Below, piece after piece: positions 7,457 to 61,925 of a stretch of 64,000 nt of DNA. Position numbers and translations under genes: made by a program. Source of the DNA: Gammaproteobacteria bacterium (lineage in GTDB: Bacteria; Actinomycetota; Acidimicrobiia; Spongiisociales; UBA4744); contig JAACED010000012.1 of assembly GCA_011682695.1 (NCBI GenBank), forward strand, positions 43,518 through 107,517, in the 5' to 3' direction. The first letter of the stretch is position 1; each line of letters begins with the position of its first letter. Below the pieces are notes generated by a model. That model was not told where the DNA came from, searched no databases, and saw only the letters and a list, made by a program, of their open reading frames with translations.

Positions 7457-9109
7457 GTGGCGAAATACGTGTTCGTAACGGGTGGTGTGGTCTCCAGTCT
7501 TGGGAAGGGGATCACCGCATCCTCCCTTGGAAGACTCCTCAAAGCACGCGGTCTGCGCGTCGTCAATCAGAAGCTGGATCCGTATATCAACGTTGATCCG
7601 GGAACGATGAACCCCTTCCAACATGGCGAGGTGTTCGTCACCGACGATGGTGGCGAGACCGACCTCGACCTCGGGCACTATGAACGTTTCACCGGTGAGA
7701 ACCTCCGGCGGGATTCCAACGTGACCACTGGTTCGGTGTACCTGTCCGTTATTCAGAAGGAACGTCGTGGTGATTACCTCGGCGGCACCGTGCAGGTTAT
7801 TCCACACATCACAAACGAGATCAAATCGCGGATCCGACGAGTCGGTGATCGCGACGACATCGACGTAATCATCACGGAGGTGGGCGGCACCGTCGGCGAC
7901 ATCGAGAGCCTGCCGTTCCTGGAAGCGATCCGCCAACTACGCAAGGATCTCGGAGCGCACAACACCGTGTATGTGCATGTGACGCTCGTTCCCTACATCT
8001 CGGCCTCAGAGGAACTGAAGACCAAACCAACGCAGCATTCGGTGGCTGAACTGCGAAGCCGCGGCATCCACCCCGACGTGATCGTCATCCGCTCCGACCG
8101 CAAGGTCGGGTCCGACGCGATTCAGAAGATCAGCCTCTTTTGCGACGTCGATCGTGAAGCCGTTATCAACGCTCTGGACGCGCCCAGCATCTATGAAGTC
8201 CCCTTGGAGCTGCACGAGGCCGGCCTCGATGACGTGATCACCAGACGCCTTCACCTCGAAACACCGCCTCCCGACCTCGCTGACTGGCGCTCGATGGTGG
8301 AACGTGCGCGAAACGCCACCCGACTCGTCACGATCGGCCTGGTGGGAAAGTACGTCGATTTGCCGGACGCGTACCTGTCGGTCGTCGAGGCTCTGCGGCA
8401 CGCCGCTGCCGGTTCGGACTCGAAGCTGGATCTGAAGTGGATTCCCAGCGACGACATGGGTGGCCTTCTTGCGCCTGAGCATCTTGCAGGAGTGGATGGC
8501 ATCGTGGTCCCCGGCGGGTTCGGGATCCGAGGAATCGAAGGAAAGATCTCGGCCATTCGTTATGCACGAGAGAACGGTATTCCGTTCCTCGGCTTGTGCC
8601 TCGGATTGCAGTGCGCGGTCATCGAATTCTCCCGATCCGTTCTTGGGCTGACGGACGCGGACAGTGCCGAATTCAATCCGACCACGACGAACCCGGTCAT
8701 CGACCTGATGGAAAGCCAGCAGGATGTCTCGGACATGGGTGGAACCATGCGCCTCGGTCTCTACCCGGCCAAGCTCGCAGAAGGGTCTCTCGCCCGCCGC
8801 CTGTACGAGCAAGAGCTGATCTACGAGCGCCATCGGCACCGTTATGAGTTGAACAATCGCTACCGCACGGACCTCGAGAACGGCGGCATGCGCCTCTCGG
8901 GCACGGCCCCCGACGACTCGCTCGTGGAGATCATCGAGCTTCCTGGGCACCCATTCTTCATCGCGTCGCAGTTCCATCCCGAGTTCAAGTCGCGACCGGA
9001 TGATCCACATCCGTTGTTCCTCGGCCTGATTCGCGCCGCGCTCGCGAGGAGGGCAATGCCTGGGGCCGCCGTTGAGACGGTCGGCGTTCCGGAGCCGCAA
9101 AGCCGGTGA
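7457..9109 (+). CDS. pyrG: CTP synthase
   Basis: [19 protein letters not shown]... synthetase domain, GLCLGLQ glutamine amidotransferase active site. GTG start. Confidence 0.95.
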
Positions 9110-9647
9110 CACCCCTGAGGCTGATCGGTCGACGATTCCTCGCACATGGTGCGTTTCTCGATTTCGAACGACTGCACTACACGGCCTTCGACGGCCGCCA
9201 CGCCGCCAGAGAGGTCGTACATCACCCTGGCGCCGTTGCCATCGTTCCGGTCATCGGAGACGAGGTCATCCTGATCGCGCAGGAGCGGATTCTCCGATCG
9301 GAAAGCGGCTGCTGGAGATTCCTGCGGGCAAGCGCGACGAGGCCGATGAACCACTCGAAGTGACCGCGATACGAGAATGCGAAGAAGAGATCGGCTATCG
9401 GCCGGGACGTTTGATTCCGCTGGGGAGTCTCTACACGACGCCAGGTTTCAGTGACGAGAGGATTTGGCTGTTCAGGGGAGAAGACCTGGAACCGGTGCCG
9501 ACCCGACCCCAAGGGCCGGAGGAGGAAATGTCGCAGATCGTACGTCTGCCGATTCCTGAGGCGCTGCGTAGGGTTGATGCTGGAGAGATCCTGGATGTGA
9601 AGACCGTGATCGGACTTCACTCGTTGAGAAGGGAGTTCAGACCGTGA
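9106..9647 (+). pseudogene. NUDIX hydrolase (ADP-ribose pyrophosphatase NudF-like), disrupted by an apparent +1/-1 frameshift near 9289-9296
   Basis: The N-terminal part (REVVHHPGAVAIVPVIGDEVILIAQERI) is in frame 1 (track ORF 9106..9363). The Nudix box and C-terminus (LLEIPAGKRDEADEPLEVTAIRECEEEIGYRPG...) are in frame 0 (track ORF 9072..9647). A 1-nt indel in the ATTCTCC tract would restore one NudF-like ORF. GTG start overlaps the pyrG stop (GTGA). Confidence 0.6.
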
Positions 9648-16461: not shown

Positions 16462-16672
16462 GCGACACCTCCCAAGACCCCCTCCGTCCTCGGCAGGACT
16501 TTCCAAGACCCCCTCCGTCCTCGGCCAAAGCCCCGAGGACACCTCCCCCAACGCTCGCCAAGACCCCCTCCGCCCTCGGCCAAAGCCCCGAGGACACCTC
16601 CCCCAACGCTCGCCAAGACCCCCTCCGTCCTCGGCCAAAGCCCCGAGGACACCTCCCCCAACGTCGGCCTTG
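16462..16672. repeat. 55-bp tandem repeat array (about 3 full copies plus a degenerate leading copy) in the aroA-cmk intergenic region
   Basis: Unit CCAAGACCCCCTCCG(T/C)CCTCGGC + CAAAGCCCCGAGGACACCTCCCCCAACGCTCG recurs at about 16503, 16558 and 16613 (period 55). A partial copy lies at about 16472. The array is C-rich on the plus strand. No coherent coding frame (55 is not a multiple of 3). Confidence 0.85.
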
Positions 16673-25380: not shown

Positions 25381-26150
25381 AGACCCTCCAACTCCGCGAT
25401 GTCAGTGCGTACTACGGCGACTTTCGCGCCATCGCCGATGTCGACCTCACCCTCCAACCTGGGGTGATCACCGCCCTCATCGGGCCTTCCGGTTGCGGAA
25501 AGTCGACCCTTCTGCGTTCTCTGAACCGGATGCACGAGTTCGTCCCGGGGGCACGCATCGAAGGCGAGATCACCCTTGACCGCGAGGACCTGTACGGCCC
25601 TTCGGTGTCACCCGCCGAGGTGCGCCGTGTCATCGGCATGGTGTTCCAGCGACCCAACCCTTTTCCAACACTGAGCATCTTCGACAATGTCGCCGCCGGT
25701 CTCCGGCTCGACGGCGGGTACACGCGTGACGAGTTCGACGACCGGGTCGAATGGGCGCTGCGTTCCGCCCACCTTTGGAAGGAGGTCGAGCATAAGCTCC
25801 ACGCCCCGGGAGCATCACTCTCCGGAGGTCAGCAACAGCGCCTCTGCATCGCCCGGACGATCGCCGTTCAACCCGCGGTGATCCTCATGGACGAACCGTG
25901 CTCGGCACTCGACCCCATCGCGACGCTCCGCATCGAGGACCTGATGCGGGAGCTCAAGGAGGACTACACCATCGTCATCGTGACCCACAACATGGAACAG
26001 GCGGCCCGAGTGTCCGACTTCACCGGGTTCCTCGTGATCGAGAAGGCCGCAGACCCCGGCCGTCTCATCGAGTTCGGCGAAACGAGCCAGATCTTCACGA
26101 CTCCGGCCGACGAACGCACAGAGCGGTATATCTCGGGGAAGTTCGGATGA
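25377..26150 (+). CDS. pstB: Phosphate ABC transporter ATP-binding protein PstB (copy 1)
   Basis: Walker [10 protein letters not shown], signature LSGGQQQR, Walker [13 protein letters not shown]-loop VTHNM. ATGA overlap with pstA. Confidence 0.9.
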
Positions 26151-27007
26151 TCGGCAACGCCGCGCGAATCACCCCCCCTGACACGTCGAGCCGGCACGAA
26201 GTCGGGGAGAATCGAGGAGCTTTGGCCGATCGCGTCGCCCCCGTCTATCGCGCCGAGAACTTCTCGCTGTGGTATGGCGAGCACCAGGCACTACGCGATG
26301 TGTCGTTCGAGATTGCTCCTCGCGAGATCACCGCGATCATCGGTCCCTCGGGGTGTGGGAAGTCGACCATGCTGCGTAGCTTCAACCGCATGAACGACAG
26401 CATCGCCGGCGTCTCGGTGGCCGGGAGGATCCTCTTCGAGGGCCGCGACCTCTACGACGACGCCATCGACGCCGTCGAGGTCCGCCGACGCATCGGCATG
26501 GTGTTCCAGAAGCCGAACCCGTTCCCGATGTCGATCTATGACAATGTCGCCTACGGCCCGCGCCTTCACGGTGAGCGGCATCCCGACGACATCGTCGAAG
26601 CGTCGCTACGTCGCACCGCGCTCTGGGACGACGTACGCGGCCGCCTCGACCAGTCGGCGCTGGCGCTCTCCGGAGGTCAGCAGCAACGCCTCTGCATCGC
26701 CCGTGCCATCGCGGTTCAGCCCGCGGTGATCCTCATGGACGAACCGTGCTCGGCACTGGACCCCATCGCGACGCTCCGCATCGAGGAGCTCATGCTCGAG
26801 CTCAAGGAGGACTACACCATCGTCATCGTGACCCACAACATGCAGCAAGCCGCCCGAATCTCCGATCGCACGGCCTTCTTCACCGTCGACGTCGGCGAGA
26901 CCGGCCAGCACATCGGCCACGTAGTAGAGTACGACGAGACGAGCAAGATCTTTACGAATCCCGCGGAAAAGGCCACCGAGGACTACATCACCGGGCGTTT
27001 TGGATGA
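26147..27007 (+). CDS. pstB: Phosphate ABC transporter ATP-binding protein PstB (copy 2, tandem paralog)
   Basis: Same motif set ([33 protein letters not shown]). ATGA overlap with copy 1. Carries a near-identical ~190-nt tract shared with copy 1. Confidence 0.9.
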
Positions 27008-52194: not shown

Positions 52195-53703
52195 GTGAAC
52201 GTAGTCGTCATCGGAGCGGGCCTCGGAGGGCTGAGCGCCGCTGCCCACCTGGCACGAGCAGGCCTCGGTGTGACCGTGCTCGAGCACCATTCCGTCCCTG
52301 GAGGCTACGCCCACGAATTCAAGCGGGATGACTTCCGCTTCGAGGTTGCCCTGCACGCCCTGGACGGCGCCGGTCCGGGAGGTTGGCTGTATCCCATCCT
52401 GGAGGAACTCGGAATCGATCTTCCGATGACGAGACTCGACCCTCTCTACCAGGCACACTATCCAGACATCCACATCACGGTACCGGCCGATCTGGCCGAG
52501 TACCAGGCGCAGCTCAGGTCTCTGTTCCCCGGCGAGCGTGAGGGAATCGATAGTCTGGTCGAGGCACTCAGACGGGTCTCCCACGACGTCGCCCGCTACA
52601 CGCTCGACCGTCAGCATGGGGAGCGGCCGGCTCCCTTCGAGATGCTCGAACGCTATCCGGCCATGGCACGTGCCTTCTCCCAAACGTGGTCTGAGCTCCT
52701 CGAAGGCCATATCCGTGACGCACGGCTCACGACCATCTTCTCTACCCTGTGGGGGTATCTCGGTCTGCCGCCGAGCCGGGTGAGTGCCGGACTGTTTGCC
52801 CTCGCGTGGAACAGCTATCACGTCGGCGGAGGGTATTACCCGGTCGGCGGCAGTCAGGCGCTCAGTCGCGCCTTCGAAGATGTGATCACCAGACACGCGG
52901 GGGAGATCCTCTACCGCCAGACGGTGAACGGAATCGTCGTGCGAGACGGTACCGCCGTTGCCGTGACCACAGAGCGCGGGCTCACGGTGGACGCGGATGT
53001 CGTCATCTCGAACGCCAGTCCCGTCGATACGATGCGTTTCCTGGGCACGGATGTGCTTCCGGACGACTACGTCCAGGACCGACGCGCCGATGTGCCATCG
53101 TTGTCCACACTCGTCCTGTACCTGGGGCTCGACCGCGACATCCGTGCCGAGGGGTGGAACGCCCACGAGGCCTTCCTCTCGGAGACGTTCGACACCGACG
53201 CGGACTACGCCGCCGCGATGTCCGGGGATTTCTCAAAGGCATCCATGGTGATTGCGGACTACACGCACACCGATCCCGGCTGTGCGCCGGCAGGCAAGAG
53301 TGTCGTGGCGATGCTCACGTTGGCACCGTGGGAATATGCGGACACCTGGGGTACCGGTGGAGATCTGGTTGGATACCGACGGAACCCTCGGTACCGAGCA
53401 TTGAAGCGCGCAGCAGCCGACATCCTGCTCGCGCGAGCCGAACGCCTCATCCCCGGCCTGCAGGACTCCATCGAGGTAATGGAGATAGCGACGCCGCTGA
53501 CCAACCATCGCTACGGTCTGGCGACCCGAGGCTCCATCTACGGCCGTGAGCAGACGGTTGACAACCTGCTGGTACGCATTTCCCCGAAGACGCCGATCCC
53601 CAATGTGTTCCTGACCGGAGCCTGGATCAGTGGGGGAGGGATGAGCACGGCGATCGCTTCAGGGAGAACCGCAGCAGAGATCGTGGCGTCCCGGCTCCGG
53701 TGA
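52195..53703 (+). CDS. NAD(P)/FAD-dependent oxidoreductase (phytoene-desaturase/CrtI-like amine-oxidase fold)
   Basis: Dinucleotide-binding VVVIGAGLGGLSAA…LE motif at the proposed N-terminus (GTG 52195). The track ORF begins at the TTG at 52108 (TTGA overlap with the Memo gene), giving a 29-aa low-complexity extension. Start uncertain. Confidence 0.7.
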   Translation: MNVVVIGAGLGGLSAAAHLARAGLGVTVLEHHSVPGGYAHEFKRDDFRFEVALHALDGAGPGGWLYPILEELGIDLPMTRLDPLYQAHYPDIHITVPADLAEYQAQLRSLFPGEREGIDSLVEALRRVSHDVARYTLDRQHGERPAPFEMLERYPAMARAFSQTWSELLEGHIRDARLTTIFSTLWGYLGLPPSRVSAGLFALAWNSYHVGGGYYPVGGSQALSRAFEDVITRHAGEILYRQTVNGIVVRDGTAVAVTTERGLTVDADVVISNASPVDTMRFLGTDVLPDDYVQDRRADVPSLSTLVLYLGLDRDIRAEGWNAHEAFLSETFDTDADYAAAMSGDFSKASMVIADYTHTDPGCAPAGKSVVAMLTLAPWEYADTWGTGGDLVGYRRNPRYRALKRAAADILLARAERLIPGLQDSIEVMEIATPLTNHRYGLATRGSIYGREQTVDNLLVRISPKTPIPNVFLTGAWISGGGMSTAIASGRTAAEIVASRLR

Positions 53704-55344: not shown

Positions 55345-57159
55345 TCAGGCATCCACTTCGGAGTTGGCGGACACGAGCAAGATGACGGTGTCGCCCGGTG
55401 CAGCGTCGCGCAACGCCCGCGTGTTGCCACTCTCGCTGATGAGCACTTTCCCGTTGGGTTTGACCACGAACAGCACCGCAGCTGCCCGCTCGCCCAGTCC
55501 GGCGGCGCCCAGACCCTCAGGATCGGTATCGAGCTTGGTGCGGTGAATCTCCCCGCCGTTGTCGAGAAGATGGAGCAGCGCGTTGTAGCTCCAGTCCGGT
55601 CCGAAGAGGAGGCGGCCACCCAAGTCGGCCCGAGGATGTGAGTCGATCCCGGCGCCCCGACGCCGAGGCACCAGCTGGTATGTCTCGGCACCGCCAAAGG
55701 TGCCGGCGTAGCGGCCGGTGGCAAGGGTGTTGACATCGTCGTTCGGAGTCAGCGCCAGAAGCCGCCCGATGCCGGACAGATCGAGGTCGAGATCGACGTC
55801 GCGGGCGAGGATATCGCCGTAGTAGGTGCGCAGGCCGGCCATCCAGGCGTCGTCGTGGTCGGCGCGGTTGGTCGTGGCGAGCACGACGTCCACACCCGAG
55901 TTGGCCAGTGCGTCCGCGATTGCTCGCTCCACCGGGCCGGCGCCCAGGATCAGCGCACCCTCCTGGTGCCGATCCGCCAGTCCGAGTCGGCGGGCGAGCG
56001 GGCCCATGCCAAGCCCGTAGATGGTGACGGTCGCGACGATCACTGCAAAGACGAGCGGCGTGATCTCGTCGCCGCCGGGAATGCCCTCGCGTTGGAGCTC
56101 GAGCGCAAACACCGATGCGATGGAGGCAGCGACGATACCGCGAGGAGCTACCCCGGCGAGTAGTACTCGCTCCTGCCACGACAATCGCGACCGCCATGTC
56201 GCGACCGCCACTGCCACAGGTCGCGCAACGAGCACCAGAGTCAGCACCAGCGCGATCGCTGCAGGTAGGTCGACTTGGAGCTGCTCAGCCGAGAGGCGGG
56301 CGCTCAGAACGATGAACAGGACCCCTATCAGCAGCACTCTCAGCACTTCGGAGAACTGGACTATCTGTTCGGTGCGGATCGTTTTGTGGTTCGCGAGGAC
56401 CAATCCGAGCACGGTCGTGGCGAGCAGGCCGGACTCGGCGGCGAACATGTCGGCGACGATGAAGGCCAGAAGAGCGACACTCACACCGAACAGCGACAGC
56501 AGATGCTCGGGAACCCAGTGGCGCCGAAGGGCAGCAATCGCACCGAGGGCAACGAGCCCTCCGACCGCGACTCCCGCAAACGTGAACTGGGCAACCTGGC
56601 TGATGACCTCGCCCGGCGTTGCGGCGACCCTGCCGACAAGGAACACCTCGAATGCCACCACGGCCACCAGCGCCCCGATCGGGTCGATGAAGATGCTCTC
56701 CCACTTGAGGATCGAACTGACCGAGCGCCGCGGCCGGACGTGGTTGAGAAGAGGCCCCACGACCGTTGGTCCCGAAACCACGAGAATCGACCCGAGCAGC
56801 ACGGCCAGACCAGGCTTGAGATCGGTGAAGGCGAGGGCGGTCACCGCTCCAACCGCCCAGGTGACGAGCACCCCGACGGTTACCAGCAGCCACAGCACCT
56901 GTTGTTGACCGGCCATTTCCCTCATACGAAGGCTGAGGCCTCCCTCGAAGAGGATGAGACCGACTGCGATCGAGACCACCGGAGTGAGGAGGTCTCCCAT
57001 CAGATCATCCGGATTGATCAGCCCAAATGCGGGGCCGATGAGGAATCCCGTCAGCAGCAGTGGAAGAATCGCCGGTACCTGGATACGTTCTCCCAGCCAA
57101 GTGACCGCAAACGCGAGAACGACTATGCCTCCCAACTGCACTATTGGATCCTCGAACAC
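55345..57159 (-). CDS. Cation:proton antiporter (CPA1/NhaP-type) fused to a C-terminal RCK/TrkA-like domain
   Basis: About 12 TM Na_H_Exchanger core, then LILGAGPVERAIADALANSGVDVVLAT (Rossmann-like) and a TrkA-C-like tail. GTG start. Confidence 0.8.
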   Translation of the reverse strand: MFEDPIVQLGGIVVLAFAVTWLGERIQVPAILPLLLTGFLIGPAFGLINPDDLMGDLLTPVVSIAVGLILFEGGLSLRMREMAGQQQVLWLLVTVGVLVTWAVGAVTALAFTDLKPGLAVLLGSILVVSGPTVVGPLLNHVRPRRSVSSILKWESIFIDPIGALVAVVAFEVFLVGRVAATPGEVISQVAQFTFAGVAVGGLVALGAIAALRRHWVPEHLLSLFGVSVALLAFIVADMFAAESGLLATTVLGLVLANHKTIRTEQIVQFSEVLRVLLIGVLFIVLSARLSAEQLQVDLPAAIALVLTLVLVARPVAVAVATWRSRLSWQERVLLAGVAPRGIVAASIASVFALELQREGIPGGDEITPLVFAVIVATVTIYGLGMGPLARRLGLADRHQEGALILGAGPVERAIADALANSGVDVVLATTNRADHDDAWMAGLRTYYGDILARDVDLDLDLSGIGRLLALTPNDDVNTLATGRYAGTFGGAETYQLVPRRRGAGIDSHPRADLGGRLLFGPDWSYNALLHLLDNGGEIHRTKLDTDPEGLGAAGLGERAAAVLFVVKPNGKVLISESGNTRALRDAAPGDTVILLVSANSEVDA

Positions 57160-57811
57160 CAGCAGAGCCTTCCAGGGGACGCCTTGTGGATGGGGATTCT
57201 ACGGTGCCCCAGGAGTTTGTACCCCAGATCCCACCGGACCCCCAAGGCAACATCCGGCCGGCCTTGTCGATCTCCTCGAGCCCCCGGGCCGACCGGTAGG
57301 GGGGCGCGCCTCGTCACGGCGGCACCCACATGCCCGATGCCCGTCCACGAAAGCGGAGCACATGCAGCCTCCACCCATCACTGCCACCGCGTTCGACCTG
57401 GCCGCCCGGACACCGGCAGTGGGGGCGAGCGCGAGATCGAGTCGGAGCCACTGTGCCTGCAACGCCCCATTCCTGGCCCGTTGGACAAATACGTCGCAAC
57501 TCGACATAACGTGGATTATGGGCGTTCCGCCAATGCATCGGGTTTCACCGTCCAGACCCGCACCGTTGCCAGGCCTGGTCCGACCCAGACCTTCTCGCAC
57601 CGCCGAGCCGACGGCTTGCCCACTGTCTTGACGTTCGCCGGCTGCAATCGACGCGCGGCCCCGTGTCCGTCCCCGCGTTGTTCGCAATCGCGCCCATGAT
57701 CCCTCCGACGTGTCGTAACGACCTGTCACCACACGCCCCAGGCAGGCCTCGGCCGGCTCGGTGCCCCGTATCGCCATCGTCGGCCCGCAGTGTCCCATTC
57801 GGGCCCCCAAA

Positions 57812-57826
57812 CGTCACGTGACGGAT
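57812..57826. promoter_or_regulatory. Palindromic motif CGTCACGTGACGGAT (copy 1), about 130 nt upstream of trxA
   Basis: Perfect 12-bp palindrome CGTCAC|GTGACG plus GAT. The same 15-mer recurs at about 59963. Coordinates +/-1. Confidence 0.4.
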
Positions 57827-57955
57827 TGGTTTGTCGATGCGGCGCTCGGCGTTGCACAATGGTGGGAATGGAAGTGGCGCTTGCGGCGTTAGCTCCACAG
57901 AAGGGTACAATATACCCCCTCGGGGTATCATGATCACAGAACTTTTGGAGAGATA

Positions 57956-58330
57956 ATGGCAACCGTCACACTGACCAAGGACAACTTCGAGGACACCGTC
58001 ACGAACAATGATATGGTCCTCGTCGACTTCTGGGCCGAATGGTGCGGTCCCTGCAAGATGTTTGGACCCGTGTTCGAGAAGATGTCGGAGCAGTACCCCG
58101 ACATCGTCTTCGGCAAGGTCGACACCGAGGCCCAGCAGGAACTGGCCGGCTACTTCAACATTCGCTCGATCCCGACTCTCATGGTCTTTCGTGAGAAGGT
58201 GATCCTGTTCTCGCAGGCGGGAGCGCTTCCGGAGCCGATGCTCGAGGACCTGATCACTCAGGTTCGCGACATCGACATGGAGGATGTCCACCGCAAGATC
58301 GAGGAAGAGTCCGCCCAAGCCGACGCCTAA
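57956..58330 (+). CDS. trxA: Thioredoxin
   Basis: WCGPC active site; full-length Trx fold. Leader contains TACAAT (-10-like) and an ATACCCC-ctc-GGGGTAT hairpin, then GGAGAG. Confidence 0.9.
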   Translation: MATVTLTKDNFEDTVTNNDMVLVDFWAEWCGPCKMFGPVFEKMSEQYPDIVFGKVDTEAQQELAGYFNIRSIPTLMVFREKVILFSQAGALPEPMLEDLITQVRDIDMEDVHRKIEEESAQADA

Positions 58331-58352
58331 TCCAACACCGACCCCGCTACGC

Positions 58353-58376
58353 GCACCGCCGGCTCCCCGGCGGTGC
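58353..58376 (+). terminator. Putative intrinsic terminator hairpin downstream of trxA
   Basis: GCACCGCCGG-ctcc-CCGGCGGTGC (10-bp perfect GC stem, 4-nt loop) about 25 nt after the trxA stop. The following tract is only weakly T-rich (cgccTTaTgg). Confidence 0.45.
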
Positions 58377-58484
58377 CGCCTTATGGCGAATCGCCAAGTG
58401 CAGCTAGTGTCCTCGCGGGGCACGGATACTGGACCGGAGTTCCCCTGGCCGACCGGACAGTGCCGATGAGCTGGAGGTGACACA

Positions 58485-59624
58485 GTGGCTGGACGCGACC
58501 GCGCGATCATGCTGTTCACGACCAAATATGATGCCAAGCCAACGGGACTCGTACGCGTACCCGGCCGCGTCAACCTGATTGGCGAGCACACGGATTACAA
58601 CGGTGGATACGTGCTCCCGATGGCCATTGAGAGAGCCATCTGGATAGCGTTTCGACCCCGTAGCGATCGGAAGGTTTTCCTCCGTTCCGAAGCCTTCGTC
58701 GATGAGGCACGGCTTGATCTCGACGAACTCACGCGCGGTGAGGGTTGGGCCGAGTACGCCAAAGGTGTGGCATGGGCCATGGAGAAGGCGGGCAACCGTC
58801 TCCAGGGCTGGGAAGGAGTCATCGCGAGCGATATCGCCATGGCCGCAGGTCTCTCCTCTTCGGCTGCCTTCGGCATCGCCATCGAAGTGGTCTTTGCCGA
58901 GGTCTCGGACCTCGGTTGGGATCCCGGTACGTTCGCACAGCTTCAGCAACACTCCGAGAACGAGTGGGTCGGGGTTCGCAGCGGCATCATGGATCCGCTC
59001 ATCGTGACGGGTGCCCACAAGGGCCATGCGATGCTCATCGATTGTCTTTCTTTCAAAGGTGTCCACGTCCCGATTCCGCCCGAGGCGGCGATCGTCGTCA
59101 TGGACACCGGAACCCGCAGAAACCTGATTGAGGCCGGGTACAACCGGCGACGATCTCAGTGTGAAGTCGCCGCGGCGAAGCTGGGCGTCACGACACTGCG
59201 AGACGTCACGATGGCCCGGCTCAACGCCCACAAGAACGACTTGGGAGAGTCTCTGTACGAATGTGCAAAACATGTTGTGACGGAGAACGAACGCACGCTC
59301 GCCGCGAAGGATGCACTGCTTCGGGGTGCCCTCGGAGAGTTTGGAAGCCTCATGAACGAAAGCCACACTTCACTGCGCGATTCCTTTGGAGTCTCCAGCC
59401 GCCCGCTCGATGCGATGGTGGAGGCTGCGCAGTCCACACCCGGGTGTTTTGGAGCCCGTCTCACAGGCGGTGGCTATGCCGGTGCTGCCATCGCCCTCGT
59501 CACACGCAAGTCGAGCGAGCGCTTCATTCACGCCGTAGAGGACGCGTTCCATGAGGCGACGGGCCTCCAGGGCCACTGCTACGTCGTCGAATCGGCGCAT
59601 GGGGCAAGCTTCGAGCCCATTTGA
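58485..59624 (+). CDS. galK: Galactokinase
   Basis: Galactokinase signature PGRVNLIGEHTDYNGG, GHMP ATP motif GLSSSAAF. GTG start 7 nt after GGAGG. Confidence 0.85.
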   Translation: MAGRDRAIMLFTTKYDAKPTGLVRVPGRVNLIGEHTDYNGGYVLPMAIERAIWIAFRPRSDRKVFLRSEAFVDEARLDLDELTRGEGWAEYAKGVAWAMEKAGNRLQGWEGVIASDIAMAAGLSSSAAFGIAIEVVFAEVSDLGWDPGTFAQLQQHSENEWVGVRSGIMDPLIVTGAHKGHAMLIDCLSFKGVHVPIPPEAAIVVMDTGTRRNLIEAGYNRRRSQCEVAAAKLGVTTLRDVTMARLNAHKNDLGESLYECAKHVVTENERTLAAKDALLRGALGEFGSLMNESHTSLRDSFGVSSRPLDAMVEAAQSTPGCFGARLTGGGYAGAAIALVTRKSSERFIHAVEDAFHEATGLQGHCYVVESAHGASFEPI

Positions 59625-59956
59625 GCGGCTTTGGGCTCCATCCAGAAGGCGGCGAGCGGTTCGGCAGCGCCGCGCAACCACTCGAAAGCCTCCCGATACG
59701 CATCACCGTCTACTCCAGCCGTCTCCAGATCACCTGCGACGTCCTCCAGAGCGGTCTCGAGACCGTACAAAAGCCCCTGAAGCTCCTCGAGGTCGCGGCG
59801 CGACACCAGAACTTCGTCCGCACCGAGACCATGTGCGTCCGCCAGTTTCCGCGCGATGTGCGCCTGCTGTCGACAACTCTGCTTGCAGTAGCGCCTCGGC
59901 CTTCCCGGGCCCGCGCGTCTGGGCAGCACTCCCCCACACCACCTGCACCGGTTCAT
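59579..59956 (-). CDS. Small C4 zinc-ribbon protein (hypothetical, candidate regulator)
   Basis: MNRCRWCGGVLPRRAGPGRPRRYCKQSCRQQAHIAR… (C-x2-C-x17-C-x3-C), then an acidic helical C-terminal half. Start set to the ATG 6 nt downstream of palindromic motif copy 2. The track ORF extends 32 codons further upstream, across the palindrome. The 3' end overlaps the galK 3' end by 46 nt (convergent). Confidence 0.5.
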   Translation of the reverse strand: MNRCRWCGGVLPRRAGPGRPRRYCKQSCRQQAHIARKLADAHGLGADEVLVSRRDLEELQGLLYGLETALEDVAGDLETAGVDGDAYREAFEWLRGAAEPLAAFWMEPKAAQMGSKLAPCADSTT

Positions 59957-59962
59957 ACGTTT

Positions 59963-59977
59963 CGTCACGTGACGGAT
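59963..59977. promoter_or_regulatory. Palindromic motif CGTCACGTGACGGAT (copy 2), immediately upstream of the zinc-ribbon gene
   Basis: Identical 15-mer to copy 1, in the same orientation on the plus strand. Coordinates +/-1. Confidence 0.4.
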
Positions 59978-60401
59978 GCTACCGGGTATACGCATGCATG
60001 TCGTCGGTACCCGATGCGCGATGGCGATGATCATCCCTACCCCTCGCCCCATCGCTCACGCCCGTACAGGAGTTCACGAACATTCCCCAGGATCCTATGC
60101 GGCCGAGTCTCGTTCGGTTCCCTCCAGAAGGCGTCGAGCGACCTCGAGCGCAGTGGCCTCGTCGCTTGCCGCGTGCGCCACCGGACGTTCGATCCACCGA
60201 GCGATCTGTTCGGAACTCGGATGATCGTGAGCTGTGAGAGCAGCCGCCAGATCGTCGGTCCAGAACCATCGCATTGCGCACCTCCGTGGGATGAGTGAGG
60301 GGATGAGTGAGACGATCTCACGGTACCGCCCATGTCAAGAGTGCTGGACCTGGGAAAACACAGCCGTGCAGTTCCACCCGCGTATGTGCGCAGATCGACG
60401 C

Positions 60402-61925
60402 TCACGTAATGACGGCAGCTCCCGACCGACGAGGGTCCACGCCTGCTTCCATCGTGCCATCGGGATGGAGGGCAACGGCGCCCACACCCCCAAAGAACAT
60501 GTCTTCACGATCGAAGGGCCTTGTTGGATACCCGGGAGATTCGACCGCCAGCCCCGGCTCATGGGCAACACGGGCCTCTCCGTCTGCGAACTCGACGTGA
60601 ATCCGCGGATGTTCCACGGCATCCTGAAGGCTCATGCCGAGATGAGCGATGTTCAGAAATGCCTGAAGGATGGCCGTGGTGATTCGATCTGCGCCCGGTG
60701 ACCCGATGACCACCACCGAACCCGAGCCGTCCCTGGCGACCGTCGGTGCCATGTTCGAAAGGAGGCGCTCTCCCGGCTCGAGCACGTGAAGGCCTCCAGG
60801 ATTGAGTTCAGTCTCGCCGAGGGAGTTGTTCAGCCATATCCCGGTACCAGGGGCCATCACCCCTGAGCCGTAGCCGGCAGAGAACGTCGCGGCACACGCG
60901 AGCCCACTCTCATCGACGACGGAAGTGTGGATGGTCGATGGAGACGTTGCCAGCCAGGCGGCCCCTTCTTCGCCGATCATGTTCAGCAGGTGTTCGGCTT
61001 CGGCGGCCAGGTCCTCTGCCCCGTCGAGATGTCCCCGCCGATACTCGAAGACCGAGCGCTGAACCTTGATGAGACGGTCCAGCGCCTCCTTCGTCCAACC
61101 ACCGACAGGCTCCTGATCCATCAGCGCGATCATCGCCGCCAGGGCCACGCCTCCGACCGCCGGCGGCGGATTCGAAGCGATGTCCCATCCGAGGATCTCG
61201 AGTCGAAGGGGATCGCGAAGGGTCGCTTCGTAGCCTGCAAGGTCCTGTTCCGTCAGCAGTCCACCGCCTGCATCCATGTCGGCGACGATCTTGCGCGCAA
61301 GAGAGCCTTTGTAGAAGACGTCTGCACCGAACTCCGCGATGGAGCGCAGACTCTCTGCGAGCCCTTCGACGTGCACGGTCGCGCCCACCTGCAGTACCCG
61401 GCCGCTCTTGTCGTGAAGTGCGGCGTAGCTGGGTTCATGCCACCCGAAGATGGTGTCGTGGCAGTGTTCGAGGTAGCGCGACGATGCAGCGGAGAGCGGG
61501 AATCCACGCTCGGCGAGATCGACCGACGGTTCGACCAGGAGACCCCAGGGCAGCCTTCCGAAGCGTGTGGAGGCGACTTGGCAGCCTGCAAGTGCGCCTG
61601 GAACGGCCACCGATCCGTGGCCGACCGTGGTGGTCATGCCGCCCCCGTACGCCATCCAGGCGTCGAAGATGCCCCCTCCGAGCCGGGAGGGATCCCGCCC
61701 CTTGCCCGGCATGCTGGCGTACCCGTCGACGGTGCAAGGAGGCTCGTCCGGCGGCCAAATGGTGAAGAAGCCACCGGCGCCCAAGGCAACGACGCCCGGC
61801 TCAGAGATCATGCCCACGAGTGACGCGGCAATCGCAGCATCCACGGCATTGCCCCCTTGCGCTGCGATCCGTTCGGCGGCGCCGGCTGCGTGTGTTGAGA
61901 CTGCTGCAACAGCGATGCGGGTCAT
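60402..61925 (-). CDS. ggt: Gamma-glutamyltranspeptidase
   Basis: Full-length GGT family; autoprocessing/catalytic Thr region (…SPSTIHTSVVD…) and GGxxG small-subunit motifs. Confidence 0.85.
   Translation of the reverse strand: MTRIAVAAVSTHAAGAAERIAAQGGNAVDAAIAASLVGMISEPGVVALGAGGFFTIWPPDEPPCTVDGYASMPGKGRDPSRLGGGIFDAWMAYGGGMTTTVGHGSVAVPGALAGCQVASTRFGRLPWGLLVEPSVDLAERGFPLSAASSRYLEHCHDTIFGWHEPSYAALHDKSGRVLQVGATVHVEGLAESLRSIAEFGADVFYKGSLARKIVADMDAGGGLLTEQDLAGYEATLRDPLRLEILGWDIASNPPPAVGGVALAAMIALMDQEPVGGWTKEALDRLIKVQRSVFEYRRGHLDGAEDLAAEAEHLLNMIGEEGAAWLATSPSTIHTSVVDESGLACAATFSAGYGSGVMAPGTGIWLNNSLGETELNPGGLHVLEPGERLLSNMAPTVARDGSGSVVVIGSPGADRITTAILQAFLNIAHLGMSLQDAVEHPRIHVEFADGEARVAHEPGLAVESPGYPTRPFDREDMFFGGVGAVALHPDGTMEAGVDPRRSGAAVIT

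What the first reader, a model, noticed from the sequence alone, without database searches (positions are those of the whole stretch)
57812..59977. Identical 15-bp motif with a perfect 12-bp palindromic core (CGTCACGTGACGGAT) occurs twice, bracketing trxA-galK and abutting a zinc-ribbon gene
The 15-mer CGTCACGTGACGGAT appears at about 57812 (about 130 nt upstream of trxA, in an 800-bp gene-free region) and again at about 59963, in the same orientation. Copy 2 ends 6 nt upstream of the ATG of a small C4 zinc-ribbon ORF on the minus strand. Perfect 12-bp palindromes are not rare in 64 kb (about 16 expected). An exact second copy of one of them, also intergenic and next to a start codon, is unlikely by chance (order 1e-3). 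Two readings are possible: (i) a dimeric-regulator operator shared by trxA and the zinc-ribbon gene, the latter perhaps the autoregulated thiol/zinc-based regulator; (ii) 15-bp direct repeats flanking a 2.1-kb inserted module (trxA-galK-ZnR), i.e. att/target-duplication-like. Both copies also sit near GGGTA(C/T)A-containing palindromes.
Basis: seen in the sequence. Interest (0 to 1): 0.65.

Follow-up and report, generated by a model that had tools for sequence, protein, structure and literature searches.

The report
Operator palindrome on leaderless zinc-ribbon gene
The repeated 15-mer is two copies of a conserved DNA palindrome that, in hundreds of Acidimicrobiia genomes, covers the start codon of an uncharacterised zinc-ribbon gene and recurs within 4 kb of it. 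This is most likely the binding site of a self-regulating transcription factor from an undescribed family.

Summary
CGTCACGTGACGGAT occurs exactly at 57812 and 59963. By chance alone it is only modestly unlikely (about 2% of simulated windows; 0.15% if the copies must lie within 3 kb).

Comparative data show it is functional. In 74 of 80 related genomes the zinc-ribbon (ZnR) gene starts in frame at the central G/ATG of CGTCAC-GTG-ACGAAA, directly after a TANNNT -10 box. That is a leaderless gene whose start codon sits at the dyad centre of an 18-bp palindrome, TTTCGTCAC|GTGACGAAA.

The second copy, upstream of trxA, is conserved in every relative where that region is present. It is an island in an otherwise diverged spacer, and its distance to the trxA promoter varies from 53 to about 330 nt. 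Across the loci, all 24 secondary sites lie within 4 kb of ZnR.

Best reading: operators of a dimeric regulator, most likely ZnR itself, which represses its own promoter. Site 2 would be a local secondary operator. Control of trxA is unproven, because trxA has its own conserved SigH/R-type promoter and CsoR-type operator.

The att or target-duplication reading is rejected. ZnR matches no Pfam, NCBIfam or PDB family.

The parts
59960..59977 (-). Primary site. It reads ATCCGTCAC|GTGACGAAA on the minus strand; the perfect 12-bp core is 59963-59974. It overlaps the last two bases of the -10 box, the presumed transcription start and codons 1-3 of ZnR.
   Evidence: In 76 orthologous sites the consensus is TTTCGTCAC|G/ATGACGAAA, with positions -6 to +5 at least 91% conserved apart from the G/A alternation at the first base of the start codon (GTG 80%, ATG 20%), and +8 A in 100%.
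59976..59981 (-). -10-like hexamer TAGCAT, 7 nt upstream of the GTG. No Shine-Dalgarno sequence is present.
   Evidence: sequence. In one search, TANNNT lies 6 nt (43 sites) or 7 nt (26 sites) upstream of the start codon in 69 of 76 sites. In one search the same holds for 32 of 33 metagenomic ZnR starts.
59579..59968 (-). ZnR gene, 129 aa, with start codon GTG at 59968-59966. It encodes a C-x2-C-x16-C-x3-C zinc ribbon, a basic helix and a long helical hairpin. Its 3' end overlaps the convergent galK by 46 nt.
   Evidence: No Pfam, NCBIfam or PDB sequence match.
57809..57826 (.). Secondary site AAACGTCACGTGACGGAT (core 57812-57823). No -10 box lies on either side and no conserved ORF starts at it.
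   Evidence: It is conserved upstream of trxA in all 11 relatives where that region is present. It is exact in L002, L003, L006, L007, L081 and L082. L004 has a last-base variant (CGTCACGTGACA). L005, L010 and L050 have centre variants, and L008 differs in the centre and the last base (CGTCAATTGACA). It is an island of identity in a diverged spacer.
57865..57890 (+). Context: SigH/SigR-type promoter GGAAT-N18-GTT of trxA.
   Evidence: sequence. Conserved in all relatives. Consensus GGAAT-N18-19-GTT, including trxB1, is given in PMC10012870.
57910..57929 (+). Context: CsoR-type operator-like palindrome ATATACCCCCTCGGGGTATC, between the trxA promoter and the trxA start.
   Evidence: It matches the streptomycete type-2 CsoR consensus ATATACCCCTNAGGGGTATAT in PMC3902906.
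57956..59624 (+). Context: trxA (57956-58330) and galK (58485-59624). They lie between the two sites and converge on ZnR.
60095..60274 (-). Context: a conserved 59-aa gene of unknown function, upstream of ZnR on the same strand. The long + strand ORF that starts at copy 2 is its antisense shadow.

Best explanation
The two 15-mers are two binding sites (operators) for one symmetric, probably dimeric, DNA-binding protein. That protein is most likely the adjacent zinc-ribbon protein ZnR itself.

Site 1 lies directly after the -10 box of a leaderless promoter. Its dyad centre falls at the 5' edge of the GTG start codon, which is also the presumed transcription start. A protein bound there would block RNA polymerase and shut off ZnR's own synthesis (negative autoregulation).

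Site 2, 2.15 kb away in the next intergenic region, is a secondary operator of the same protein. It either brings neighbouring genes (trxA-galK and/or the divergent Na+/H+ exchanger) under the same control, or cooperates with site 1 by looping.

Shown here: both sites are conserved, selection acts at the DNA level, the promoter has leaderless anatomy, and the sites cluster around ZnR genes.

Inferred, not shown: that ZnR is the binder, that it represses, and what site 2 controls.
For: 1. In 74 of 80 genome loci from Acidimicrobiia, the ZnR ORF begins in frame at the centre of CGTCAC-[G/A]TG-ACGAA. The linker between this start and the zinc ribbon varies in length.
2. Selection acts on the DNA, not the protein. 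Codon 2 is ACG in 99% of sites. The third base of codon 3 is A in 100% of sites, although the amino acid varies (K/E/Q/I/L) and the genomes are 68-74% GC. The non-coding left half mirrors the coding right half, with symmetry covariation at positions +-8 and +-10.
3. TANNNT lies 6-7 nt upstream of the start codon in 69 of 76 sites, and again in 32 of 33 metagenomic ZnR starts.
4. Distant family members keep the same design with a changed centre: TAGTTTCGTCAC-C-GTGACAAAA, TATTATCGTCAC-T-GTGACAGAA and TATTTTCGTAC-T-GTGACGAAA. The site therefore tracks the protein.
5. Site 2 is the only strongly conserved block in its part of the spacer between the window and its closest relatives. A recognisable site 2 is kept in L007 (exact) and L008 (a centre variant), which lack galK.
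6. There are 22 to 24 secondary CGTCA-NN-TGACG sites, depending on the locus set, in about 0.84 Mb of ZnR loci, against about 1 expected (my estimate). All lie within 4 kb of ZnR, and none lies in the 250 kb at 4-6 kb.
7. Among metagenomic hits to the perfect 18-mer, 33 are ZnR starts and 9 more have a ZnR-family gene within about 1 kb. In the enoyl-CoA-hydratase promoter class, 5 of 13 contigs carry ZnR about 3 kb away.
8. ZnR has no conserved regulator gene as a neighbour.
9. The ZnR model (pLDDT 84.7) is a basic zinc ribbon plus a long helical hairpin, which is compatible with a dimeric nucleic-acid binder.
Against: No binding or transcript data exist.

Site 2 has no fixed distance to any promoter in this clade (53 to about 330 nt from the trxA -35 box). 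In some genomes it lies between convergent genes. Classical promoter control by site 2 is therefore not evident.

The counts come from related genomes and are not independent events.
Confidence: 0.6

Rival explanations
1. The palindrome is the operator of a different regulator encoded elsewhere in the genome. ZnR is only its best-conserved target gene, and site 2 and the other secondary sites are further members of that regulon.
For: ZnR has no recognised DNA-binding domain. The site also occurs at a fixed promoter position of an enoyl-CoA hydratase gene, as expected for a regulon.
Against: Secondary sites cluster within 4 kb of ZnR and are absent at 4-6 kb. The centre of the site changes together with ZnR divergence. 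No other conserved regulator is linked to ZnR.
Confidence: 0.2
2. ZnR is an architectural or bridging protein rather than a simple repressor. Its zinc ribbon binds the palindromes, and its coiled-coil hairpin pairs site 1 with the secondary site, forming a loop around the locus.
For: Site pairs lie 0.35-3.7 kb apart with no fixed promoter geometry. Some contigs carry arrays of 2-3 sites 31 nt apart (L133, L130, L164). There are weak resemblances to the zinc-ribbon plus coiled-coil module of PhiC31 integrase (E 0.75) and to Pfam Zn_ribbon_recom (E 0.29).
Against: The structural similarities are not significant. About 70% of the loci show no second site within 6 kb.
Confidence: 0.12
3. The conserved sequence at ZnR is only promoter and leaderless-initiation context, and the second copy is a chance repeat.
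For: A duplicated 12-bp palindrome is common by chance (23% of simulated windows). The left arm overlaps the -10 region.
Against: Site 2 is conserved in all 11 relatives where that region is present, although it has no -10 box and no ORF. The same palindrome recurs at non-start positions near other ZnR genes. Symmetry extends into the coding codons.
Confidence: 0.03
4. The repeats are att or target-site-duplication-like direct repeats around an inserted trxA-galK-ZnR module.
For: Two identical 15-mers in the same orientation flank 2.1 kb.
Against: The core is a palindrome, so it has no orientation. One copy contains the start codon of a gene that is syntenic across the order. No recombinase gene lies nearby. 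L007 (exact site) and L008 (a centre variant) lack galK but keep a site 2 next to trxA. Distant genomes have the site without trxA or galK.
Confidence: 0.02
5. The palindrome acts as an RNA hairpin, either as a translational mask of the start codon in read-through transcripts or as a terminator.
For: In some genomes the palindrome is 24-30 nt long (L049, L069, L028).
Against: In a leaderless mRNA only half of the palindrome is transcribed. The window's sites fold no better than shuffled sequences (z +0.7 to +1.25). There is no U-tract. There is no Rfam match.
Confidence: 0.03

Closest known systems
Negatively autoregulated repressors whose palindromic operator overlaps their own -10 box and transcription start (for example LexA, and many TetR or MarR family members). 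This comparison rests on established knowledge.
   Same: A dyad-symmetric site of about 18 bp covers the promoter's -10/+1 region of the regulator's own gene. There are additional sites nearby. The operator is conserved across orthologues.
   Different: The protein has no HTH or other recognised DNA-binding domain. The mRNA is leaderless, so the dyad centre falls at the 5' edge of the start codon and the right half-site is codons 1-3 (MTK). Binding is untested.
Leaderless actinobacterial genes (TANNNT -10 box, with transcription starting at the A/G of the start codon). This comparison rests on established knowledge.
   Same: TANNNT lies 6-7 nt upstream of GTG/ATG, and there is no Shine-Dalgarno sequence.
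   Different: Ordinary leaderless promoters do not conserve the discriminator and the first three codons as a palindrome.
DUF2116-type and related zinc ribbons of actinophage proteins; the zinc-ribbon plus coiled-coil module of large serine integrases.
   Same: A C-x2-C...YC-x3-CR treble-clef-like ribbon followed by helices. Foldseek matches a Mycobacterium phage Catdawg DUF2116 protein (probability 0.97, E 0.06, 34% identity over 58 columns). There are weak PHROG hits and non-significant PhiC31 integrase hits.
   Different: No Pfam DUF2116 or Zn_ribbon_recom hit reaches threshold. There is no catalytic domain. None of these relatives has a known function as a regulator.
parS, the ParB centromere site (TGTTNCACGTGAAACA). 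The sequence is recalled from my own knowledge.
   Same: A palindrome with a CACGTG centre and AAA/TTT flanks.
   Different: The half-site is GTGACGAAA rather than GTGAAACA, so the arms are longer by CG. The site is tied to the ZnR start codon. A link to parAB or to the origin was not examined.

Membership tests
Autoregulated repressor with an operator over its own promoter | A dyad-symmetric site overlaps the -10/+1 region of the regulator's own gene | tested here: met
   the palindrome spans -9 to +9 around the start codon and directly follows TANNNT.
Autoregulated repressor with an operator over its own promoter | The site is conserved with the gene across species and changes together with the protein | tested here: met
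   74 of 80 loci; 33 metagenomic starts; variant centres in distant members.
Autoregulated repressor with an operator over its own promoter | The protein carries a recognised DNA-binding domain | tested here: not met
   There are no Pfam or NCBIfam hits and no PDB sequence hit below E 0.1. The fold searches give nothing significant.
Autoregulated repressor with an operator over its own promoter | The protein binds the site and represses transcription | not testable with these tools
   This needs EMSA, DAP-seq or reporter assays.
Leaderless mRNA | A -10 hexamer lies 6-8 nt upstream of the start codon, with no Shine-Dalgarno sequence | tested here: met
   69 of 76 sites. In the window: TAGCAT, then 7 nt, then GTG.
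Leaderless mRNA | The mapped transcription start coincides with the start codon | not testable with these tools
   This needs 5'RACE or dRNA-seq.
att sites or target-site duplication of a mobile module | A recombinase or transposase is present, and related genomes differ in presence or absence of the block | tested here: not met
   No such gene is present. The block is syntenic in 13 relatives, and a site 2 persists where galK is absent.
SigH/SigR-dependent promoter (trxA context) | GGAAT-N18-19-GTT upstream of a thiol-redox gene, conserved in relatives | tested here: met
   consensus from PMC10012870. The sigma factor itself was not identified.
CsoR-family operator (trxA context) | A G-tract pseudopalindrome that matches ATATACCCCTNAGGGGTATAT | tested here: met
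   Window 57910-57929, conserved in relatives; consensus from PMC3902906.
CsoR-family operator (trxA context) | A csoR-family gene is nearby | tested here: not met
   tblastn of the window with an M. tuberculosis CsoR sequence recalled from memory found nothing better than E 1. This is a weak test.
DUF2116 zinc-ribbon family | A match to the Pfam model | tested here: inconclusive
   No Pfam hit even at E up to 10. A structural match exists to a phage protein named DUF2116 (E 0.06).

The most novel reading that the evidence does not exclude
ZnR founds an undescribed class of bacterial DNA-binding regulators. It combines a DUF2116-like zinc ribbon with a coiled-coil hairpin and has no HTH. Its operator dyad sits on the start codon of its own leaderless mRNA, and it pairs that site with a second palindrome up to 4 kb away, by looping or bridging, to control the local neighbourhood. 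In this lineage the neighbourhood includes a thioredoxin operon.
Probability: 0.2. Interest if true: 0.7.

Novelty: new variant of a known kind. Interest (0 to 1): 0.55.

Why it matters
Acidimicrobiia are abundant in soil, freshwater and the sea, and almost nothing is known about their gene regulation.

This finding gives a precisely defined, testable pair: one small orphan protein family and one 18-bp site. The family has about 660 clusters at 50% identity and no Pfam model.

The arrangement is unusual. The operator dyad is centred at the start codon of a leaderless gene, so operator selection fixes the first three codons (MTK).

If ZnR binds the site, it adds a new type of DNA-binding fold to bacterial transcription factors. 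It would also correct the start of this gene where the public record truncates the zinc ribbon, as it does for the source genome.

Tried and rejected
- Rfam, gathering and E-value modes, on the window, the spacer and 10 metagenome loci: no relevant family.
- RNA folding of both sites: no better than shuffled sequences.
- Sigma-70 and terminator scan: nothing useful.
- A conserved small ORF starting at site 2 (a 24-aa + strand ORF and a 91-aa - strand ORF): no conservation.
- A decayed ZnR pseudogene at site 2: none found.
- The + strand 'MTD...' ORF starting at copy 2: it is the antisense shadow of the conserved 59-aa gene.
- Literature search for the motif and for the ZnR peptide signatures: only eukaryotic E-box papers, or nothing.
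- All-against-all ORF clustering for conserved neighbours: swamped by low-complexity GC-rich ORFs.
- The match to the CsoR-like motif at 52743: it lies inside a coding gene and is probably chance.
- The first Markov simulation timed out. The next one counted overlapping palindromes. The corrected version is.
Full report
**Observation.** The 15-mer CGTCACGTGACGGAT is present exactly twice on the + strand, at 57812-57826 and 59963-59977. No other copy of the 12-bp palindromic core exists in the 64-kb window with fewer than two mismatches.

An exact 15-mer repeat is not special on its own. The window holds about 20 isolated ones and 26 perfect 12-bp palindromes. In 5990 first-order Markov simulations:
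- a duplicated non-overlapping 12-bp palindrome appeared in 23% of windows;
- one with at least 15 nt of identity appeared in 1.9%;
- one that also lay within 3 kb appeared in 0.15%.

The case rests on comparative evidence.

**Gene context.** The window is 62.6% GC. The closest proteins come from Acidimicrobiia MAGs. The local genes are listed below.

| Gene | Coordinates | Strand |
|---|---|---|
| Na+/H+ exchanger | 55345-57159 | - |
| trxA | 57956-58330 | + |
| galK | 58485-59624 | + |
| ZnR (zinc-ribbon ORF) | 59579-59968 | - |
| Conserved 59-aa ORF | 60095-60274 | - |
| Gamma-glutamyltranspeptidase | 60402-61925 | - |

An 800-bp spacer separates the exchanger from trxA. The order GGT, orf59, ZnR, then convergent galK and trxA is kept in L001-L010 and L050 and in the two closest relatives, L081 and L082. 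L081 and L082 also keep the exchanger.

**The true start of ZnR lies inside copy 2.** ZnR homologues are small (about 115-130 aa), have no Pfam domain, and mostly begin with MTK. A linker of variable length follows, before the invariant RCxWCG...GRPRRYCxxxCRQQA zinc ribbon.

In 80 genome loci fetched with the family alignment, 74 have an in-frame G/ATG at the centre of CGTCAC-[G/A]TG-ACGAA. In the window this start is GTG 59968-59966 on the minus strand, giving MTKRMNRC. The public 116-aa annotation (P0001) starts at an internal GTG downstream of the first CxxC, so it truncates the ribbon.

**Anatomy of the primary site.** A position matrix of 76 sites gives T T T C G T C A C | G/A T G A C G A A A.
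- Positions -6 to +5 are at least 91% conserved, apart from the G/A alternation at the first base of the start codon (GTG 80%, ATG 20%).
- Codon 2 is ACG in 99% of sites.
- The third base of codon 3 is A in 100% of sites, although the encoded residue varies (K/E/Q/I/L) and the genomes are GC-rich.

This shows selection on the DNA, not on the protein.

The left arm follows directly after a TANNNT hexamer, with a 6-nt gap in 43 sites and a 7-nt gap in 26 sites, out of 76. In the window the hexamer is TAGCAT at 59981-59976, with a 7-nt gap. There is no room for a Shine-Dalgarno sequence. This is the standard layout of a leaderless actinobacterial gene (established knowledge), with the presumed TSS at the start codon.

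Symmetry extends to about +-10-12, with covariation at +-8 and +-10. Some genomes carry perfect 28-30-bp palindromes (L049, L069, L028).

**The design follows the protein family.** A profile search of 1.84 billion representative proteins finds 664 clusters at E <= 1e-3 and 212 at E <= 1e-10. Many distant members begin with V/MT[KEQIL], or contain 'VTVTK' inside over-extended annotated N-termini. Their DNA shows the same design with an extra base at the centre:
- TAGTTTCGTCAC-C-GTGACAAAA
- TATTATCGTCAC-T-GTGACAGAA
- TATTTTCGTAC-T-GTGACGAAA

**Site 2 is also under selection.** Every relative in which the region upstream of trxA is present carries a site there. It is exact in L002, L003, L006, L007, L081 and L082. 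L004 has a last-base variant (CGTCACGTGACA). L005, L010 and L050 have centre variants (CGTCAGGTGACG or CGTCACCTGACG). L008 differs in the centre and the last base (CGTCAATTGACA). This pattern suggests half-sites CGTCA and TGACG separated by a tolerant 2-bp centre.

In the three-way alignment with L081 and L082 the spacer is largely diverged. Site 2 is one of five conserved islands. The others are the exchanger's 5' end, a block at about 57495-57527, the trxA promoter, and the trxA 5'UTR palindrome.

Site 2 has no TANNNT on either side and no conserved ORF. Its distance to the trxA promoter ranges from 53 nt in the window to about 330 nt in L004.

**trxA has its own regulatory elements.** GGAAT-N18-GTT (57865-57890) matches the SigH/SigR consensus, which includes trxB1 in C. 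glutamicum (PMC10012870). ATATACCCCCTCGGGGTATC (57910-57929) matches the streptomycete CsoR type-2 operator ATATACCCCTNAGGGGTATAT (PMC3902906). Both are conserved in all relatives. The one near copy 2 is not conserved.

**Secondary sites cluster around ZnR.** Outside the ZnR starts, the 0.83 Mb of the first 80 loci hold 22 CGTCA-NN-TGACG sites, against roughly 1 expected (my estimate). With L081 and L082 added there are 24. All 24 lie within 4 kb of ZnR, and none lies in the 250 kb at 4-6 kb. P = 2e-4 if the sites were uniform and independent, which they are not fully.

Their neighbours differ between lineages:
- the 3' end of ZnR (L031, L036, L060);
- the region before a His_Phos_1 gene (L017, L043, L061);
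- an enoyl-CoA hydratase gene (L074).

| Class | Matches | Notes |
|---|---|---|
| ZnR-family start codons | 33 | 32 have TANNNT in place |
| Other sites near a ZnR-family gene | 9 | ZnR-family gene within about 1 kb; includes arrays of 2-3 sites (L133, L130, L164) |
| Enoyl-CoA hydratase promoter | 13 | Fixed position, centre about -44.5 before a leaderless gene; ZnR lies about 3 kb away in 5 of the 13 contigs |
| Lower-GC repeat-like element | 30 | Apparently unrelated; no ZnR on any of these contigs |
| Remainder | 36 | Short or low-GC contigs, including 4 cut by a contig end |

**Interpretation.** The two 15-mers are two members of one family of protein-binding palindromes. The most economical model is that ZnR binds them as a symmetric oligomer. 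At site 1 it would sit on the -10/+1 region of its own leaderless promoter and repress it.

Site 2 is a local secondary operator. It may couple neighbouring genes to ZnR or cooperate with site 1 by looping. Regulation of trxA is possible but not indicated by the geometry.

The extra identity beyond the 12-bp core (GGAT on the + strand) reflects flanks specific to this lineage. Both sites share them in the window and in L082 (15 nt). In L081 they share 14 nt.

**Rejected or unlikely.**
- att or target duplication: the core is a palindrome, it lies at a start codon of a vertically inherited gene, there is no recombinase, and a site 2 persists without galK.
- RNA hairpin or terminator: only half the palindrome is transcribed in a leaderless mRNA, folding is no better than shuffles, and there is no Rfam hit.
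- Chance: excluded by the conservation of site 2.
- An unlinked regulator remains the main rival.

**Limits.** All support is comparative. The counts are phylogenetically non-independent. No complete genome could be scanned. Binding, the TSS and the direction of regulation are inferred.

Noticed in passing
window 57865-57929: trxA carries a conserved SigH/SigR-type promoter (GGAAT-N18-GTT) followed by a near-perfect CsoR-type operator (ATATACCCCCTCGGGGTATC). A CsoR/CstR-family site on a thioredoxin gene is conserved in all relatives. No csoR-like gene was found in the window.
   Followed up: partly
window 57495-57527; L081 (reverse complement of 8012-9121): A conserved block, ACTCGACATAACGTGGATTATGGGCG, lies in the exchanger-trxA spacer. 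In L081 it is preceded by three tandem 21-nt repeats, CCGTCACTACTTGACATAAAG, each containing the half-site CGTCAC. Its function is unknown; it may be a promoter or an extra half-site array.
   Followed up: partly
L090, L099, L103-L108, L111-L115 and others (30 metagenome loci, GC 0.53-0.58): A highly conserved non-coding element of about 120 nt or more ends in TTGCGGTGACGGGTTTTTCGTCACGTGACGAAAC. It occurs in lower-GC organisms with no ZnR gene on the contig. It contains the same perfect 18-mer and may be an unrelated repeat or regulatory region. There is no Rfam match.
   Followed up: partly
L109, L132, L137, L144, L149, L157, L158, L163, L169, L180, L182, L200 (also L186, L126): In freshwater Acidimicrobiia the perfect 18-mer sits between a divergent HAD hydrolase gene and a leaderless enoyl-CoA hydratase gene (TAGTGT, then 6-7 nt, then ATG). 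The centre is about 44.5 nt upstream of the hydratase start. ZnR lies about 3 kb away in 5 of the 13 class-C contigs.
   Followed up: yes
window 59579-59968 (public protein P0001): The deposited annotation of the source genome calls this gene as 116 aa, starting at an internal GTG. This removes the first CxxC of the zinc ribbon. The record is also labelled Gammaproteobacteria, although all relatives are Acidimicrobiia.
   Followed up: yes
window 59579-59624: The convergent genes ZnR and galK overlap by 46 nt at their 3' ends. The overlap is conserved in L081 and L082.
   Followed up: no
window 16472-16650: A tandem repeat of about 55 nt (CCAAGACCCCCTCCGTCCTCGGCCAAAGCCCCGAGGACACCTCCCCCAACGCTCG), present in 3-4 copies, showed up in the k-mer listing.
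   Followed up: no
window 25631-25980 and 26491-26828: Two stretches of about 350 nt, 860 nt (upstream end) to 848 nt (downstream end) apart, share many exact segments of up to about 45 nt. They look like tandem paralogous ABC-ATPase genes (the LSGGQ region).
   Followed up: no
L133 about 620-700; L130; L164; L184: Some metagenomic contigs carry arrays of two or three palindromes about 31 nt apart (three helical turns) next to ZnR-family genes. This suggests cooperative multi-site binding.
   Followed up: partly
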